Source of the DNA: Eledone cirrhosa
Lineage: Eukaryota
Assembly (NCBI GenBank): GCA_964016885.1
Contig: OZ024743.1
Location: 220,906,001 to 220,970,000, forward strand
Reading direction: 5' to 3'
Length of the DNA: 64,000 nt
The translations under genes were made by a program, and so were the position numbers. Shown piece by piece: positions 21,200-30,356 of the stretch (positions are counted from its first letter, which is position 1; each line of letters opens with the position of its first letter). The notes beneath the pieces were generated by a model. The model made no database searches, was not told where the DNA came from, and saw only the letters and a list, made by a program, of their open reading frames with translations.

Positions 21200-21630
21200 T
21201 TCAAAGGGTCCCACATAGCAGTCTGCAACCACAACAACCATCCCCTGCCTCCTCCCCCTCTTCCCCCCCCCCCTGCTTCTACCCTCTCCAGTCACAAGCA
21301 AGCCATTAGCAGAGAAGGATGGGCAGACAAATTGATTTTCTTCTCTGAAATGTGCAAATTAACTTTTCTTCCCCTCTCTCTCTCTCTATATATATATATA
21401 TTGTTTGTTATTATCATTATTTTCAATATTTGTACAAATATGCAACTTAAAAATATTCTGCATATCCGCAATTGACAATGCATTTAATGCTGAAACCGGT
21501 ATGGTAAATAAATTAATGCTTTGAAATTTCACTAAAAAATCTCTTCAACATTTTCTACTGAAAAAATCTTTTTCCTTTCTACTATTTGTTTATATATATA
21601 TATATCAATTGGTGTGTTACCTTTCTACAT

Positions 21631-21730
<100 letters not shown>

Positions 21731-22040
21731 GAGAGAGAGAGATCTTTAATCTTTCATTTCTAAGAAATCATTTCTATATCAAAGTAAGGAAGCCTACACT
21801 TTACTGACGTACTAAGTACATATTTTAGCTATATACATCGGGAATCCACATATTATATATATATATATATATATATATTGAGTTGTAATAAAATGAAAAC
21901 GAAATTTCATTTCTCACTCTTAGCACGGCACTTACTTACGGCATACATTCAGGCTGTTCAGTTTGTTTTCAAACGAACAAAGCGGGTGCTATAATAAGCG
22001 TACTGATGCCTACATATACGTATGTGTACCTGTATGTGTA

Positions 22041-22124
<84 letters not shown>

Positions 22125-22360
22125 TGCTACTGTACGTCTGTATACATATATGTATGTACGTATACATACATACTTACATTTAAGTAAGTGCCGTACTAAG
22201 AGTGAGAAATGAAATTTCGTTTTCATTCTATTACAACTCATCGTTTTCGGTGCGCCTGACCGATTTAACTCACTCAATATGCAAATTAGGCTGCTCAGCC
22301 GTTAATTTTCATAACAAAAGTATATACTTTCGAACGTTCAACTATCTGGCAGATGGGTAT

Positions 22361-22403
22361 ACGGTGCTGATGATAGCTAACAAGCTTGAAACTAGTACAT
22401 CGT
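22361..22403 (+). ncRNA. Minimal type I hammerhead ribozyme, apparently intact
   Basis: acggtg CTGATGA t-agc-taacaa-gct-t GAAAC ta GTA catcgt; palindromic stem III ACTAGT. Confidence 0.85.
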
Positions 22404-22553
22404 TCCTGTGTGAGTGTTGAACAAAAAGGTGACGTGGTTGCCTTAACACCGTGCGGCATAAATTCAGGCTGTTCAGTTTGTTTACAAACGAACAAAGCGG
22501 GTGCTATAATAAGCGTCCGCTAAACTGATGCGTACATATATGTATGTGTACCT

Positions 22554-22620
<67 letters not shown>

Positions 22621-22624
<4 letters not shown>

Positions 22625-23080
22625 GAATCTCAAATTGTAATACGTGACGTATTCTATTCTATAGCGATTAGGTCTTCAAAATGTTTATTATAAACATACA
22701 GAATATTTTCGAATATTCTATGTTTGTCTTCACATATATATCGCTATTTCGGAGCATTAAATCCAAATTCTAATTTCTGCCGGACCGGCAACCCCTCTTT
22801 CAAACCAGTTCCTGTACACAGCTAAGTATTCTATAAGTCTCTAGCTGTGTCATTCTCGATAAAAGCATTGGATATGTAATCCTGATGATTTCAAATAAGA
22901 ATGAAACGCGTAGGTTACTTCCCTTGCTTTTATCGAGAATCTCAAATTGTAATACGTGACGTATTCTATTCTATAGCGATTAGGTCTTCAAAATGTTTAT
23001 TATAAACATACAGAATATTTTCGAATATTCTATGTTTGTCTTCACATATATATCGCTATTTCAGAGCATTAAATCCAAAT
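22621..23080 (+). mobile_element. Nested 312-nt retrozyme-like element (about 1.5 units) inserted in the (TA)n of the 504-nt unit
   Basis: Direct repeat 22621-22768 and 22933-23080 (period 312); single HHR between; (TA)n on both sides. Confidence 0.85.
22876..22918 (+). ncRNA. Minimal type I hammerhead ribozyme, apparently intact
   Basis: gtaatc CTGATGA t-ttc-aaataa-gaa-t GAAAC gc GTA ggttac; palindromic stem III ACGCGT; flanks ttctcgataaaagca/tgcttttatcgagaa can pair. Confidence 0.85.
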
Positions 23081-23337
23081 ATATATATATATATATATGC
23101 ATGCTACTGTACGTCTGTATACATATATGTATGTACGTATACATACATACTTACATTTAAGTAAGTGCCGTACTAAGAGTGAAAAATGAAATTTCGTTTT
23201 CATTTTATTACAACTCATCGTTTTCGGTGCGCCTGACCGATTTAACTCACTCGATATGCAAATTAGGCTGCTCAGCTGTTAATTTTCATAAGGAAAGTAT
23301 ATACTTTCGAACGTTCAACTATCTGGCAGATGGGTAT

Positions 23338-23380
23338 ACGGTGCTGATGATAGCTAACAAGCTTGAAACTAGTGCATCGT
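23338..23380 (+). ncRNA. Minimal hammerhead, cleavage triplet changed to GUG
   Basis: Identical to 22361-22403 except GTA>GTG. Confidence 0.75.
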
Positions 23381-23539
23381 TCCTGTGTCAGTGTTGAACA
23401 AAAAGGTGACGTGGTTGTCTTAACACCGTGCAGCATAAATTCAGGCTGTTCAGTTTGTTTACAAACGAACAAAGCGGGTGCTATAATGAGCGTCCGCTAA
23501 ACTGATGCGTACATATATGTATGTGTACCTGTATGTGTA

Positions 23540-23605
<66 letters not shown>

Positions 23606-23841
23606 TGCTACTGTACGTCTGTATACATATATGTATGTACGTATACATACATACTTACATTTAAGTAAGTGCCGTACTAAGAGTGAGAAATGAAATTTCG
23701 TTTTCATTTTATTACAACTCATCGTTTTCGGTGCGCCTGACCGATTTAACTCACTCGATATGCAAATTAGGCTGCTCAGCTGTTAATTTTCATAAGGAAA
23801 GTATATACTTTCGAACGTTCAACTATCTGGCAGATGGGTAT

Positions 23842-23884
23842 ACGGTGCTGATGATAGCTAACAAGCTTGAAACTAGTGCATCGT
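23842..23884 (+). ncRNA. Minimal hammerhead, cleavage triplet changed to GUG
   Basis: Identical to 23338-23380. Confidence 0.75.
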
Positions 23885-24163
23885 TCCTGTGTCAGTGTTG
23901 AACAAAAAGGTGACGTGGTTGCCTTAACACCGTGCAGCATAAATTCAGGCTGTTCAGTTTGTTTACAAACGAACAAAGCGGGTGCTATAATAAGCGTCCG
24001 CTAAACTGATGCGTACATATATGTATGTGTACCTGTATGTGTATATATGTATATATATATATATATATATGCATGCTACTGTACTTCTGTATACATATAT
24101 GTATGTACGTATACATACATACTTACATATATATATATTAATATATATATATATATATATATA

Positions 24164-24497
<334 letters not shown>

Positions 24498-25239
24498 TAT
24501 AGTTTAATAAATGAACAGAGAACAAAAAACAGAGAGACAGTACAAATGATATACACACACACATATATATTTACATTTGTATCCATATCTATATAGATAC
24601 ATTCAAATATGTGTTGCGTATATATATATATATATGCTGCTGATGACGATAATGATGAAGATGATGAAAATATGAATGACGTGTATTTTTGATATTTCCG
24701 TCCATCAAACATCACTTGCAACTATTTTTATGTGATGTTACATTATACAGTGCAAACACAAAACAACTTTCAATACTATGCCACATTCTCAGTGGTTATA
24801 ACTGAATGTTTTATATATTTTACTTCATATCAGAGAATTATTTAATATGATAGTGTACATCATGAAAACTATGCTTTTCTCTATGTCCTTTATTTAATAA
24901 TGTACTTTTGGTTTGGTTAGATTATGTACAGATCATTTAATATAATAAAATGATAACATTCGCTAGTAAGGTAAATGTTATGTTTTATTGTAACATAACA
25001 GTAAGATGAACTTATTAAAGTTGTGTTATTGCACTCATGACTTTAATAATATATGCCTATATTATTAAATATGTGTGTGTATATATATATATATCACCAC
25101 GAAGGAGAGAAAAACACAACTGTATATATAGATACAACTGTATATATATATAGATACAACTGTATATATATAGATACAACTGTATATATATATAGATATC
25201 ATGCATAGATATCAGCAGTATCTATGGTTTCACATGGAA

Positions 25240-25655
25240 GGAAGAAGTCTGTAATGAAGTGATGTTCCATAAATGAGATATATAAAGCATAGATGCCATG
25301 TTAATAAAGTTTCAATTAAGATAAACTGACCATGTTGCTAGGATCAATGATGCCTAAAATACACTTATGACCAACTTCAAGCGGGAGTGCGGAATTTAAG
25401 AAGACCCCTTCTTAGATGGAAGGATAAACTGAAGAATAATATCAAGCATATTGGAATACAACCATCAGAATTTGAGGAATGTGCGGTTAACGTTAATAGG
25501 TGGAGGAAAATCAGTCAAAATGGCATCAGGAGCAACACAATGATTGAGTACCTGGATGATTTAAAGCAAGTTGAAAGGAATGCAGTTTCTGGTGAATGAT
25601 TTGTGTGTGAAGAATGAAGGGCAGGTTTAGTGTCTCACAGTAGGCACAAATACTA
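25240..25655 (+). mobile_element. RTE-clade LINE 3' fragment
   Basis: HVARINDA...RRPLLRWKDKLKNNIKHIGI...WRK...FVC...AGLVSH, typical of the RTE C-terminus. Confidence 0.75.
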
Positions 25656-25732
25656 AAATGCGGAGTAAAGGGATAGAAAAATCGCTTGGCCATCATGCAT
25701 CAAACACGACGAGAGAGTTCACCATACACATA

Positions 25733-25952
<220 letters not shown>

Positions 25953-29892: not shown

Positions 29893-29945
<53 letters not shown>

Positions 29946-29946
<1 letters not shown>

Positions 29947-30356
29947 TGTATACGTACATACATATATGTGTACAGACGCACAGTAGTATGTATATATATA
30001 CATACATGCACACATATATGTATGTACGTATGAGTTTACCGAACATTAATTATAATGTTCGGTTTGTTTGTTATCAAACAGCCCGAATTACGCCGTACAG
30101 TGCTCGGCAACGATCGTCGCCCTTTTGTTCAACACTGACACAGGAACGGTGTACTAGTTTCAATCTTATTAACTATCGTTAGCATCGTATACCTTTCTGT
30201 ACGATGATTGAACGTCTGAATGTATATACTTTCCTCATGCATATTAACGGCTGAGCAGCCTAATTTGCATATCGAGTGAGTTAGTCGGCCGGGTATACCG
30301 AAAACGATAAATGGAAAAGAATGAAACGAAATTTCATTTCTCACCCTTAGTACGGA
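29946..30356 (-). mobile_element. Diverged monomer of the 504-nt retrozyme-like unit
   Basis: Alignable with the reverse complement of the 22190-22560 and 23100-23150 parts of the unit; decayed HHR at 30146-30188 (CTAACGA...GAAAC ta GTA). Confidence 0.8.

What the first reader, a model, noticed from the sequence alone, without database searches (positions are those of the whole stretch)
22621..23080. A second retrozyme (312-nt period, ~1.5 units) nested in the first one's (TA)n
Seen: 148-bp direct repeats 312 bp apart differing at about one base, with an intact minimal HHR between them. A 15-bp helix (ttctcgataaaagca/tgcttttatcgagaa) encloses the ribozyme, and the host unit continues correctly on both sides of the split TA tract. 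Inference: a greater-than-unit-length, circularly permuted copy is what rolling reverse transcription of a 312-nt circle (or a 5'-to-3' template jump) would leave. It is also direct evidence that the internal TA pad is used as a target.
Basis: partly seen in the sequence, partly recalled or inferred. Interest (0 to 1): 0.76.

Follow-up and report, generated by a model that had tools for sequence, protein, structure and literature searches.

The report
Ribozyme mini-retroelement with Penelope-type insertions
A 462-base, one-and-a-half-unit copy of a small hammerhead-ribozyme repeat sits in the TA-repeat of another such repeat, and its relatives across the genome carry the insertion marks of Penelope-like retrotransposons, which likely copy it: an ordinary member of a recently described class, but an unusually clean record of how that class lands.

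Summary
Window 22619-23080 holds 1.47 units of a 312-nt repeat, with 150-nt direct repeats that are 99% identical. It has a complete type-I hammerhead core closed by a 16-bp stem, and it splits the (TA)n tract of a 504-nt hammerhead repeat array.

I examined 40 genomic insertions of the same family at 97-99% identity:
- They lie in (TA)n.
- Their 5' ends vary.
- Their 3' ends are of two fixed kinds, at about q121 and about q148, 27 nt apart.
- 32 of 40 consist of two head-to-head inverted arms.
- In all 28 of 28 regular two-armed insertions, one arm carries the 27-nt "tail" and the other does not.

This matches the published signature of Penelope-like elements (PLEs): partial tandems, an inverted 5'-truncated copy, a one-sided tail and microsatellite targets. 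The genome holds over 10,000 GIY-YIG candidates. One abundant PLE family shows the same behaviour and is fused to a 312-nt array in one chimera.

The element is therefore an animal-type non-LTR retrozyme, likely mobilised by a PLE. It is not shown. The scan has reported similar PLE-type structures in other genomes.

The parts
22563..22618 (.). Left part of the split (TA)n target tract, which belongs to the host 504-nt repeat unit
   Evidence: TRF finds TA x29.5 at 22563-22621. The host body ends at 22560.
22619..23080 (+). The whole insertion: 462 nt, or 1.47 units of the 312-nt repeat. The 5' end is at unit position q311 and the 3' end at q148 (tail-type end). It has a single arm and no inverted copy.
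   Evidence: L001 1499-1960 corresponds to window 22619-23080.
22621..22932 (+). Complete unit (q1-q312). It carries two private changes, q131 G and q174 C.
   Evidence: 159 of 161 genomic units have A at q131 and 129 of 131 have G at q174.
22933..23080 (+). Partial second unit (q1-q148), identical to the family majority
22852..22940 (+). Hammerhead domain closed by a 16-bp stem (22852-22867 with 22925-22940)
   Evidence: Sequence; the circular MFE fold keeps this stem.
22876..22918 (+). Type-I hammerhead core: helix I 6 bp, CUGAUGA 22882-22888, helix II 22889-22902, GAAA 22903-22906, palindromic helix III ACGCGU 22906-22911. The predicted cleavage is after 22912.
   Evidence: Sequence. The Rfam HH9 alignment covers the full model at 20.1 bits, below the gathering score. 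142 of 144 genomic units keep the core motifs.
22993..23031 (+). Two hairpins of the 3' module (q61-77 and q80-99), just upstream of the tail-less start site. The same module also lies at 22681-22719.
   Evidence: In the alignment with related family B, each stem shows compensatory changes. The hairpins are also present in the MFE fold.
23042..23053 (+). Region of the alternative, tail-less 3' end (q110-121, CACATATATAT). It is used as the 3' end in other insertions but is internal here.
   Evidence: (C113>T and C111>T occur only in terminal units).
23054..23080 (+). The 27-nt 'tail' (q122-148) that ends this copy: ...AATCCAAAT followed by (AT)n
   Evidence: a tail-type end at q145-154 is present on exactly one arm in 28 of 28 regular double-arm insertions.
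23081..23099 (.). Right part of the split (TA)n target tract
   Evidence: The host body resumes at 23103.
21879..21938 (-). Inverted, 5'-truncated arm of the host 504-nt retrozyme array (host positions 56-115). Its outer end, the host's own tail end, abuts (TA)n.
21941..24128 (+). Plus arm of the host array: a partial unit, three full bodies (22126-22560, 23103-23537, 23607-24041) and a final 54-nt piece ending at the host's tail-less end. It is interrupted by the 312-nt element.
   Evidence: (D6-D8)

Best explanation
The 462 bases are a young, 1.47-unit copy of a 312-nt non-coding tandem-repeat element that carries a type-I hammerhead motif (an animal-type 'non-LTR retrozyme'). It was most likely inserted into the (TA)n tract of another such element by the reverse transcriptase-endonuclease of a Penelope-like element (PLE), through target-primed reverse transcription.

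Shown by the sequences:
- The family lands in (TA)n.
- Its 5' ends vary.
- Its 3' ends fall at two sites 27 nt apart (about q121 and about q148).
- Most insertions consist of two inverted arms whose truncated 5' ends meet in the middle with 0-9 nt of shared bases.
- Every regular two-armed insertion has one end of each kind.
- Both arms usually carry the same private variants.

Inferred:
- The PLE enzyme nicks both strands of the TA tract, and each 3' end primes cDNA synthesis at one of two internal start sites next to a conserved double hairpin.
- Synthesis runs over more than one unit because the template is a circular or multimeric 312-nt RNA. I judge a small circle somewhat more likely, about 55:45.
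- The two cDNAs are joined by microhomology.

In the window's copy only one arm, the tail-bearing one, was made or kept, and its 5' end joined the TA tract at a 2-nt TA overlap.
For: (1) Anatomy of the window copy.

(2) Family census. There are 242 matches from the 40 of 473 candidates that were scored. 40 distinct insertions were read (37; 3 more).
- 32 of 40 are head-to-head double arms and 8 of 40 have a single arm.
- In 28 of 28 double-arm insertions with regular, readable ends, one end lies at q145-154 and the other at q119-121.
- Four were dropped: L010, L019 and L043 as irregular, and L030 because it is cut by the locus end.
- Among the 29 centre junctions of the first 37, overlap is 0-9 nt in 26, 17 nt in 1 and a 2-3 nt filler in 2.
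- TA flanks: both sides in 26 of 37, at least one side in 36 of 37.

(3) Both arms share private or subfamily variants. Examples are q96G in 11 of 11 and 8 of 8 units of L032; q88C plus q106T in 3 of 3 and 3 of 3 units of L046; q170T in L041; q50G in L038; and q147T in L127.

(4) The published PLE signature matches. It comprises 5' truncation, partial tandems, an adjacent inverted 5'-truncated copy, a 30-40-bp tail often at only one end, and (TA)n targets (PMC8557442, passages read). A purified PLE protein cleaves and extends both strands, starts at two adjacent internal RNA sites whose spacing is the tail, and prefers AT-rich DNA (PMC11167929, main text read).

(5) PLEs are abundant here.
- There are 10,596 first-look GIY-YIG candidates, and 150 of 150 scored passed the cut-off.
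- Open frames of 844-1096 aa carry RVT_1, one of them also GIY-YIG.
- Family 'PLE-Y' has 2,797 first-look candidates at 95-97% identity. Among the 8 downstream stretches printed it ends in (TA)n at two sites about 62 nt apart, 4 tail-less and 4 tailed.
- Its frame aligns with an RT+GIY-YIG frame at E 3e-13.

(6) Physical links between families. In L006/L093 a 312-nt array is fused co-linearly to the 3' UTR of a PLE-Y copy, at a point where all 29 other PLE-Y copies continue differently. In L037 a 312-nt arm is joined head-to-head to an arm of another hammerhead element.

(7) Related family B keeps the 3' module (75-82% identity), with compensatory changes in both hairpins and the same two kinds of end.

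(8) Evidence for a small template copied repeatedly.
- The q96G 27-mer occurs 19 times in the 3.0-Gb assembly, all in L032.
- 0 of 67 arm 5' ends fall within 3 nt of the cleavage site.
- Arms reach 10.9 units.
Against: - No autonomous PLE with sequence similarity to the 312-nt unit was found. blastn against 30 GIY-YIG loci, 10 loci of 9.9 kb and 29 PLE-Y 3' regions gave nothing beyond a 28-nt hammerhead-core match (26 of 28) to a non-autonomous element.
- The window's own copy lacks the inverted arm, so for this copy the PLE signature rests on the TA target, the tail-type end and the partial tandem.
- The insertions sampled are the best-scoring 40 of 473 candidates, so long young arrays are over-represented.
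- Against a simple one-circle template, some arms are internally heterogeneous: L007 (3 of 5 units share two linked variants), L048 (q170T in 3 of 6), L038 (q177G in 3 of 5) and L124 (q165T in alternate units).
- Two insertions have arm-specific variants (L044, L047). The L047 variant is a subfamily marker found at 6 other loci, so the two arms can come from different RNAs.
- In vitro the PLE enzyme showed no difference in start site between the two strands (PMC11167929). The strict one-tail rule seen here is therefore not explained by published biochemistry.
- Hammerhead self-cleavage and RNA circles were not tested.
Confidence: 0.8

Rival explanations
1. The structure is a template-switch chimera rather than a later insertion. 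While the host 504-nt RNA was being reverse-transcribed, the enzyme would have jumped at the host's (UA)n tract onto a 312-nt RNA, copied 1.47 units, and jumped back. The nested structure would then have arisen in one event, and the TA pad was never a DNA target.
For: - Template switching between families is documented at 2 of the loci read (L037; L006/L093).
- Both known nestings of a 312-nt array inside host-family arrays (window and L048) are single-armed and co-oriented with the host. No anti-oriented nesting was found by pattern search.
- The host units left and right of the insert differ at 8 fixed positions, 4 derived on each side.
Against: - Only two cases exist. Co-orientation in 2 of 2 has p = 0.25 by chance.
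- The 312-nt copy differs from the family majority at 2 of 462 bases, whereas host unit 2 differs from units 3 and 4 at 8-11 of 435. This fits a younger insertion into an older array.
- Both junctions look like those of ordinary insertions: a tail-type 3' end and a 5' end with a 2-nt TA overlap. Six other single-arm insertions lie outside host arrays.
- The pattern searches covered pads of at most about 64 nt with exact anchors, so they could have missed cases. They did miss L048.
Confidence: 0.12
2. The repeat behaves as a DNA-level satellite. The 1.47-unit structure and the longer arrays arose by unequal crossing-over, replication slippage or integration of extrachromosomal circular DNA, with no reverse transcription.
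For: Tandem 312-bp units can expand by unequal exchange. Some arrays contain blocks or alternating variants (L007, L124). A 342-nt Logan contig that wraps the 312-nt unit is equally compatible with tandem or circular DNA.
Against: - Dozens of dispersed insertions on many contigs are 97-99% identical.
- Their 3' ends are fixed and polar while their 5' ends vary.
- The arms are always head-to-head, never tail-to-tail.
- Tail asymmetry holds in 28 of 28.
- One array is fused to a PLE messenger 3' UTR.
None of this is expected from DNA recombination, and all of it is expected from target-primed reverse transcription.
Confidence: 0.04
3. The structure is an assembly artefact: a collapsed or mis-joined repeat in a TA-rich region.
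For: TA microsatellites and tandem repeats are hard to assemble. PLE-type structures are known to trouble assemblies (PMC8557442, passage read).
Against: The same architecture recurs at 40 loci with different flanks and unit numbers. The host array is in register on both sides. The two copies of the 148-nt part differ at one base, which would not be expected from a simple duplicated mis-join.
Confidence: 0.03

Closest known systems
Metazoan non-LTR retrozymes (Cervera & de la Pena 2020, PMC7229834, passages read; review PMC7761336, passages read)
   Same: - Tandem repeats of 150-450 bp, each with a type-I hammerhead.
- Low GC (34% here).
- No LTRs and non-coding.
- A strongly self-paired predicted RNA (circular MFE -73.2 against -47.7 for shuffles).
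   Different: Circular RNA and self-cleavage were shown for those families and were not tested here. The passages I read in those papers do not describe inverted arms, a one-sided tail or microsatellite targets: a word search for 'inverted' and 'microsatellite' found nothing relevant. The review states that the repeats show no motif that identifies the mobilising element. Here the insertion architecture supplies that link.
Insertion architecture of endonuclease-positive Penelope-like elements (Craig et al. 2021, PMC8557442; Frangieh et al. 2024, PMC11167929)
   Same: - 5' truncation and partial tandems.
- An adjacent inverted 5'-truncated copy.
- A short extension ('tail') at one end only.
- (TA)n or AT-rich targets.
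- Two adjacent internal start sites.
- Both DNA strands cleaved and extended.
   Different: - The unit is 312 nt and encodes nothing, so the 'partial tandem' becomes a true multi-unit array of up to 10.9 units per arm.
- The tail is 27 nt, against 30-40 nt in the published cases.
- No sequence homology to a PLE terminal repeat was found in this genome.
- The one-tail rule is absolute in my sample (28 of 28), whereas the papers say 'often'.
Non-LTR retrozymes as derivatives of PLE pseudo-LTRs in Xenopus (Li, Clavereau & Pollet 2026 preprint, 10.64898/2026.07.22.740005; abstract, section 14 and word-search passages read)
   Same: The conclusion is the same: animal retrozymes depend on PLEs. Retrozymes and PLEs co-occur in the genome.
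   Different: Their evidence is co-occurrence and sequence similarity to pLTRs. Mine is the insertion signature and chimeric copies, without detectable similarity to a pLTR. The words 'tail' and 'head-to-head' do not occur in that text. Its supplements were not available to me.
Twin priming of LINE-1 (recalled: Ostertag & Kazazian 2001; only the search listing of PMC2837659 was seen)
   Same: Two cDNAs are primed from the two target strands and joined by microhomology, giving an inverted 5' part.
   Different: - In L1 it affects a minority of insertions, and the second priming site is arbitrary.
- Here 32 of 40 insertions are two-armed and both start sites are fixed.
- There is no poly(A).
- The enzyme family differs (GIY-YIG PLE, not APE-type LINE).
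Plant LTR retrozymes (Cervera et al. 2016, PMC4918200; search listing and abstract only)
   Same: They are non-autonomous, carry hammerheads, and are proposed to spread through circular RNA.
   Different: The plant elements have type-III hammerheads inside LTRs, a PBS and PPT, 4-bp target duplications and Gypsy-type mobilisation. None of these is seen here.

Membership tests
Type-I hammerhead ribozyme (metazoan 'canonical' form) | Conserved core: CUGAUGA, GAAA, and a cleavage-site triplet ending in H (not G) | tested here: met
   CUGAUGA 22882-22888, GAAA 22903-22906, GUA before the predicted cut after 22912. The Rfam HH9 alignment shows all core positions. 142 of 144 genomic units keep the core.
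Type-I hammerhead ribozyme (metazoan 'canonical' form) | Helix I of about 6 bp, open towards the ends; helix II of about 4 bp; helix III of 1-2 bp capped by a small palindromic loop, so that it is active as a dimer (PMC4209133, passage read) | tested here: met
   Helix I is GUAAUC/GGUUAC (6 bp, one G-U). Helix II is UUC/GAA plus a U-U at its base. Helix III is ACGCGU, a 6-nt palindrome allowing only 2 bp in cis. The MFE dimer fold did not reproduce the trans helix, so the dimer form is inferred.
Type-I hammerhead ribozyme (metazoan 'canonical' form) | Score at or above Rfam's gathering threshold | tested here: not met
   HH9 scored 20.1 bits against a gathering score of 52. The clear hammerheads of other elements in this genome were not reported either. 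I therefore take this as a limit of the models for short-helix-III variants.
Type-I hammerhead ribozyme (metazoan 'canonical' form) | Self-cleavage | not testable with these tools
   No RNA run was listed for the stretch.
Metazoan non-LTR retrozyme | Tandem repeats of 150-450 bp, each unit with a type-I hammerhead; no LTR; GC below 50% | tested here: met
   The period is 312 nt with seamless unit junctions and arms of up to 10.9 units. GC is 34.3%. No terminal repeats other than the unit itself were seen. PBS and PPT were not searched for.
Metazoan non-LTR retrozyme | Expressed as small circular RNA | not testable with these tools
   No RNA holder was listed. A 342-nt contig that wraps the 312-nt unit cannot distinguish tandem DNA from a circle.
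Metazoan non-LTR retrozyme | A self-contained short unit, not merely the terminal piece of a longer coding element | tested here: met
   In the insertions read, every arm longer than one unit continues into another 312-nt unit. The one copy that runs into a PLE (L006) does so at a point where 29 other PLE copies continue differently.
Element mobilised by endonuclease-positive Penelope-like elements (insertion signature) | 5' truncation with fixed 3' ends; partial tandems | tested here: met
   The 67 arm 5' ends are spread over the unit. The 3' ends fall at about q121 or about q148.
Element mobilised by endonuclease-positive Penelope-like elements (insertion signature) | An adjacent inverted 5'-truncated copy | tested here: met
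   Present in 32 of 40 family insertions. Absent from the window's own copy.
Element mobilised by endonuclease-positive Penelope-like elements (insertion signature) | A short extension ('tail', 30-40 bp) at only one end | tested here: met
   A 27-nt tail (q122-148) lies on exactly one arm in 28 of 28 regular double-arm insertions. It is slightly shorter than the published range.
Element mobilised by endonuclease-positive Penelope-like elements (insertion signature) | Microsatellite or AT-rich target | tested here: met
   (TA)>=4 lies within 20 nt on both flanks in 26 of 37 insertions and on at least one flank in 36 of 37.
Element mobilised by endonuclease-positive Penelope-like elements (insertion signature) | Sequence similarity of the non-autonomous element to the terminal region (pLTR) of an autonomous PLE in the same genome | tested here: not met
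   No similarity was found to 30 + 10 GIY-YIG loci or to 29 PLE-Y 3' regions. There is only a 28-nt hammerhead-core match to a 636-nt non-autonomous element. Only a small part of more than 10,000 candidates was looked at.
Autonomous Penelope-like element | Encodes RT and GIY-YIG endonuclease | tested here: not met
   The 312-nt unit has no long open frame and is non-coding. It is therefore not a PLE itself.

The most novel reading that the evidence does not exclude
Each complete insertion is made by one two-headed PLE particle working on one small circular RNA. The two reverse-transcriptase heads are primed by the two strands of the cut TA tract. They start at two fixed sites 27 nt apart on the same RNA module and follow each other round the 312-nt circle. 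This produces two multimeric cDNAs that meet head to head: a 'double rolling-circle' form of target-primed reverse transcription.

This would explain three things at once:
- why exactly one arm has the tail (28 of 28);
- why both arms carry the same private mutation (19 of 19 units in L032, absent from the rest of the assembly);
- why arms run to many units.

It would also account for the long-puzzling tandem, inverted and tailed structures of PLEs in general.
Probability: 0.22. Interest if true: 0.8.

Novelty: new member of a known kind. Interest (0 to 1): 0.48.

Why it matters
Which enzyme moves animal retrozymes has been an open point. A 2020 review states that the repeats show no motif that identifies the autonomous element they use (PMC7761336, passage read). 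A 2026 preprint argues for PLEs from co-occurrence and sequence similarity.

This family adds a third, independent kind of evidence: the landing marks themselves. It is small, young and abundant in a chromosome-scale assembly. That makes it a compact system for studying the still unexplained PLE integration cycle:
- priming from both strands;
- two start sites;
- a one-sided tail;
- microsatellite targeting;
- template switching.

The strict one-tail rule and the sharing of private variants between arms are constraints that any model of that cycle has to meet.

For the window itself the finding is ordinary: one more selfish insertion, with no sign of a host function.

Tried and rejected
- **RNA evidence.** No RNA holder was listed for the stretch. 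Laying Logan contigs of four runs showed only that the family is very abundant in two runs, and that one run has a 342-nt contig wrapping the 312-nt unit. This cannot distinguish a circle from tandem DNA.
- **Rfam on six PLE-bearing loci.** It returned only spurious microRNA matches in TA/TG-rich tracts and no hammerhead, even where one is plain by eye.
- **Window ORFs.** Seven of the 26 frames of at least 150 aa, chosen by hand, had no Pfam match.
- **Search for an autonomous partner by similarity.** This failed. A 910-aa frame near one hammerhead element proved to be a LINE-like RT with C2H2 fingers and is unrelated. The 'PLE-X' hammerhead element turned out to be a 636-nt non-coding element, not an autonomous PLE.
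- **Pattern searches for further nested copies.** They found only the window's own locus and no anti-oriented case.
- **Fold-back (hairpin-primed) origin of the inverted arm.** Rejected, because the arms are unequal in length and their outer ends differ.
- **Two independent insertions into one TA tract.** Rejected, because the arms abut without TA between them, are always head-to-head, and share private variants.
- **Loss of the tail by slippage between the element's own TATATAT and the flanking (TA)n.** Rejected, because independent loss would give tail/tail and tail-less/tail-less insertions, and none was seen (0 of 28).
- **The 312-nt unit as merely the end of a longer PLE.** It is rejected here, because the arrays close on themselves with a 312-nt period.
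- **MFE dimer folding.** It did not reproduce the expected trans helix III.
- **The q157T variant of L007.** The one other genomic occurrence lies on a different haplotype, so it is not a source copy.
Full report
**The observation**

The window holds a direct repeat of 150 nt (22619-22768 and 22931-23080), 99% identical and spaced 312 nt apart (D9). This gives 1.47 units of a 312-nt repeat. The single difference is at unit position q131.

Between the copies, on the + strand, lies a complete type-I hammerhead core (read):
- helix I: GUAAUC/GGUUAC
- CUGAUGA 22882-22888
- a short helix II
- GAAA 22903-22906
- a 6-nt palindrome ACGCGU in place of a stable helix III
- predicted cleavage after 22912

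Rfam's HH9 model aligns end to end but scores only 20.1 bits against a gathering score of 52. A 16-bp perfect stem (22852-22867 with 22925-22940) closes the ribozyme.

The element interrupts a TA tract that belongs to a 504-nt repeat array. The bodies of that array continue in register on both sides.

**The family**

The window lies in a 3.0-Gb assembly (G000, contig C4). The unit has at least 242 matches at 97-99% identity, and only 40 of 473 first-look candidates were scored. I read 40 separate insertions: 37, and three more. One further locus, L124, is cut by the end of the fetched stretch and is not counted. The sample is the best-scoring part of the family, so long, young arrays are over-represented.

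- *Target.* (TA)>=4 lies within 20 nt on both flanks in 26 of 37 insertions and on at least one flank in 36 of 37.
- *3' ends.* There are two kinds. The 'tail' end lies at q145-154, mostly q148 (...AATCCAAAT followed by TA repeat). The 'tail-less' end lies at q119-121 (...GTCTTCACATATATAT running into the TA repeat). At tail-less ends the terminal unit often reads T for C at q113, and sometimes also at q111. These changes are seen almost only in terminal units. The target's TA end therefore overlapped the element's own CACATATAT.
- *5' ends.* The 67 arm 5' ends are scattered over the unit. There is a modest excess in the hammerhead/stem region (21 of 67 in q249-311). None falls within 3 nt of the cleavage site, and none in q115-145.
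- *Arms.* 32 of 40 insertions consist of two arms in inverted, head-to-head order, with the 3' ends outside and the truncated 5' ends meeting in the middle. The 29 centre junctions of the first 37 insertions show 0-9 nt of overlap in 26, 17 nt in one (at a palindromic hairpin) and 2-3 nt of filler in two.
- *The one-tail rule.* In all 28 double-arm insertions whose two ends are regular and readable, one end is of the tail kind and the other is tail-less. None is 148/148 or 121/121. Four were dropped: L010, L019 and L043 as irregular, and L030 because it is cut. If ends were chosen independently with equal odds, this would have a probability of about 4e-9.

The eight single-arm insertions, the window's among them, end either way: three tail and five tail-less.

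**What this matches**

These are the published hallmarks of Penelope-like elements.
- Craig et al. 2021 (PMC8557442, passages read) describe high 5' truncation and partial tandems. They also describe an inverted 5'-truncated copy adjacent to the 5' end, a 30-40-bp 'tail' often present at only one end, and (TA)n targets in some clades.
- Frangieh et al. 2024 (PMC11167929, main text read) showed that a purified PLE protein cleaves and extends both DNA strands and prefers AT-rich DNA. It starts reverse transcription at two adjacent internal RNA sites, and the stretch between them is the tail.

The 312-nt family fits all of these points, with a 27-nt tail.

The unit is not simply the end of a longer PLE. 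Every arm longer than one unit continues seamlessly into another 312-nt unit, up to 10.9 units per arm. It therefore meets the definition of an animal non-LTR retrozyme (PMC7229834, PMC7761336, passages read): a tandem 150-450-bp unit with a type-I hammerhead, low GC (34%) and no LTR.

**PLEs in this genome**

GIY-YIG candidates number 10,596 at first look, and 150 of 150 scored passed Pfam's cut-off. Open frames of 844-1096 aa carry RVT_1, one of them also GIY-YIG.

One locus, L006 (extended as L093), gave a lead. There a 312-nt array, from q121 at the TA tract back to q12, runs co-linearly into the 3' UTR of a PLE copy. That copy's 474-aa open frame aligns with an RT+GIY-YIG frame (E 3e-13). 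By eye it shows YVDD, a CX4CxxC motif and a GIY-YIG-like motif; Pfam reported only a weak RVT_1 match.

This 'PLE-Y' family has 2,797 first-look candidates at 95-97% identity. All 29 other copies examined continue differently from the fusion point, so L006 is a template-switch chimera. Among the 8 downstream stretches printed, PLE-Y's own copies end in (TA)n at two sites about 62 nt apart, 4 tail-less and 4 tailed. PLE-Y is the best candidate for the mobilising enzyme. It shares no detectable sequence with the 312-nt unit, so the assignment is an inference.

A second chimera, L037, joins a 312-nt arm head-to-head to an arm of a 636-nt non-coding hammerhead element through an 11-nt 312-derived piece.

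**A likely recognition module**

A related repeat family ('B'; loci L052, L043, L081) has a different hammerhead region but keeps q41-148 at 75-82% identity. It includes two hairpins (q61-77 and q80-99) that show compensatory changes, and the same two kinds of 3' end. I take this module, which sits just upstream of the start sites, to be what the enzyme recognises. That is an inference.

**Template: circle or multimer?**

Within an insertion the units are nearly uniform, and private or subfamily variants are shared by both arms.

The clearest case is L032. The variant q96G is in 11 of 11 units of one arm and 8 of 8 of the other. The 27-mer carrying it occurs 19 times in the whole assembly, all of them in this insertion. 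A single small template copied many times, feeding both arms, explains this most simply. A multimeric transcript would need a homogeneous source array that the assembly lacks.

Points against a pure one-circle model:
- Some arms hold blocks or alternating variants (L007, L048, L038, L124).
- Two insertions have arm-specific variants (L044, L047). The L047 variant is a subfamily marker present at six other loci.
- The enzyme studied in vitro used unprocessed RNA.

No RNA data could be had. I put a circular template at about 55%.

**The window's copy and its host**

The copy has a tail-type 3' end at 23080 and a 5' end at q311 that shares TA with the target. It has no inverted arm. It differs from the family majority at 2 of 462 bases.

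The host array is itself a retrozyme insertion of the same style:
- an inverted 60-nt arm (21879-21938) whose outer end carries the host's 61-nt tail;
- a plus arm (21941-24128) that ends at the tail-less site.

A second, independent nesting of a 312-nt array (6.4 units) inside another host-family array (L048) shows that these internal TA pads are hit repeatedly.

Both nested arrays are single-armed and co-oriented with the host. The host units on the two sides of the window insert differ at 8 fixed positions. A one-event template-switch origin is therefore a live rival (about 12%). The lower divergence of the insert favours a later insertion.

**Standing**

This is a new family of a known kind. 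The link between animal retrozymes and PLEs has been proposed from co-occurrence (PMC7761336) and from similarity to pLTRs in Xenopus (2026 preprint; abstract, one section and word-search passages read, supplements not available). In the texts I could search I did not find the insertion signature described for retrozymes. That is no proof that it is not in print.

Earlier notes of this scan reached PLE-type readings for similar structures in other genomes.

Noticed in passing
window 21879-24128: The host 504-nt hammerhead repeat array has the same insertion style. It has an inverted 60-nt arm with a 61-nt tail (host positions 55-115) and a plus arm of about 4.3 units that ends at the tail-less site (position 54). 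Both outer ends lie in (TA)n.
   Followed up: partly
window 23374 and 23878 (compare 22397): Host units 3 and 4 have G at the hammerhead cleavage-site position 17, which should block cleavage. Unit 2 and all four units of the L048 array have A. Units 3 and 4 share 4 derived changes, and unit 2 has 4 of its own. The array is therefore two haplotypes that meet at the 312-nt insert.
   Followed up: partly
L086 578-1213 (also L091, L092, L083, L090, L037): There is a 636-nt non-coding element running from (TA)n to (TA)n. It has a TATA-like box about 35 nt upstream of a full hammerhead (4-bp helix III), two 3' ends 68 nt apart, and the same 5' start in the two full copies compared (L091, L092). Its hammerhead core is 26 of 28 identical to that of the 312-nt unit. 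L090 8033/8045 is a tiny head-to-head insertion of it, with one tail.
   Followed up: partly
L037 977-1767: This is a chimeric head-to-head insertion. A 312-nt minus arm (tail-type end) is joined to 11 nt of 312-nt sequence in plus orientation (q56-66). That piece then joins a plus arm of the 636-nt element (positions 345-636, tail end). Both outer ends are tail-type here, unlike in same-family insertions.
   Followed up: partly
L006 1380-3312 and L093: A 312-nt array is fused co-linearly to the 3' UTR of an abundant PLE family ('PLE-Y'). PLE-Y's hammerhead has a 7-bp helix II. Its ends lie in (TA)n with a tail of about 62 nt. Its frame shows a CX4CxxC motif before the GIY-YIG-like motif.
   Followed up: partly
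L052 2420-2900; L043 1930-2450; L081 270-740: Related repeat family 'B' has a different hammerhead region and the same 3' module. Its insertions are also head-to-head, with one tail.
   Followed up: partly
L124 1286-3101: In an array of another 312-nt subfamily, the variant q165T appears in the 2nd and 4th full units only. This alternating pattern would fit a dimeric template or a duplicated 624-bp block.
   Followed up: no
the 312-nt family, all loci read: None of the 67 arm 5' ends falls in q115-145, the stretch between and just before the two start sites (about 6.7 expected if uniform). The gap was noticed after the fact and is unexplained.
   Followed up: no
window 29945-30355 (- strand): A diverged copy (79%) of the host 504-nt repeat lies here.
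   Followed up: no
window 24128-24501: There is a 187-nt-arm perfect-centre palindrome (93% complementary) made of TA/TG-rich sequence, directly after the host array (I1).
   Followed up: no
window 21600-25950 and PLE loci: Rfam microRNA models (mir-297, mir-1277, mir-3149 and others) give dozens of sub-threshold matches in TA/TG microsatellites. These are composition artefacts.
   Followed up: yes
runs X1, X4, X6: The 312-nt family reaches very high summed contig depth in runs carrying other organism codes, at 90-99% identity. One run assembles it as a 342-nt contig that wraps the unit. The family is therefore shared by, or abundant in, related organisms.
   Followed up: no
L112, L110, L120, L107, L127: Copies of different hammerhead families (host-504, the 636-nt element, PLE-Y, the 312-nt family) repeatedly share one TA microsatellite. 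TA tracts thus act as common landing pads that grow by nesting.
   Followed up: no
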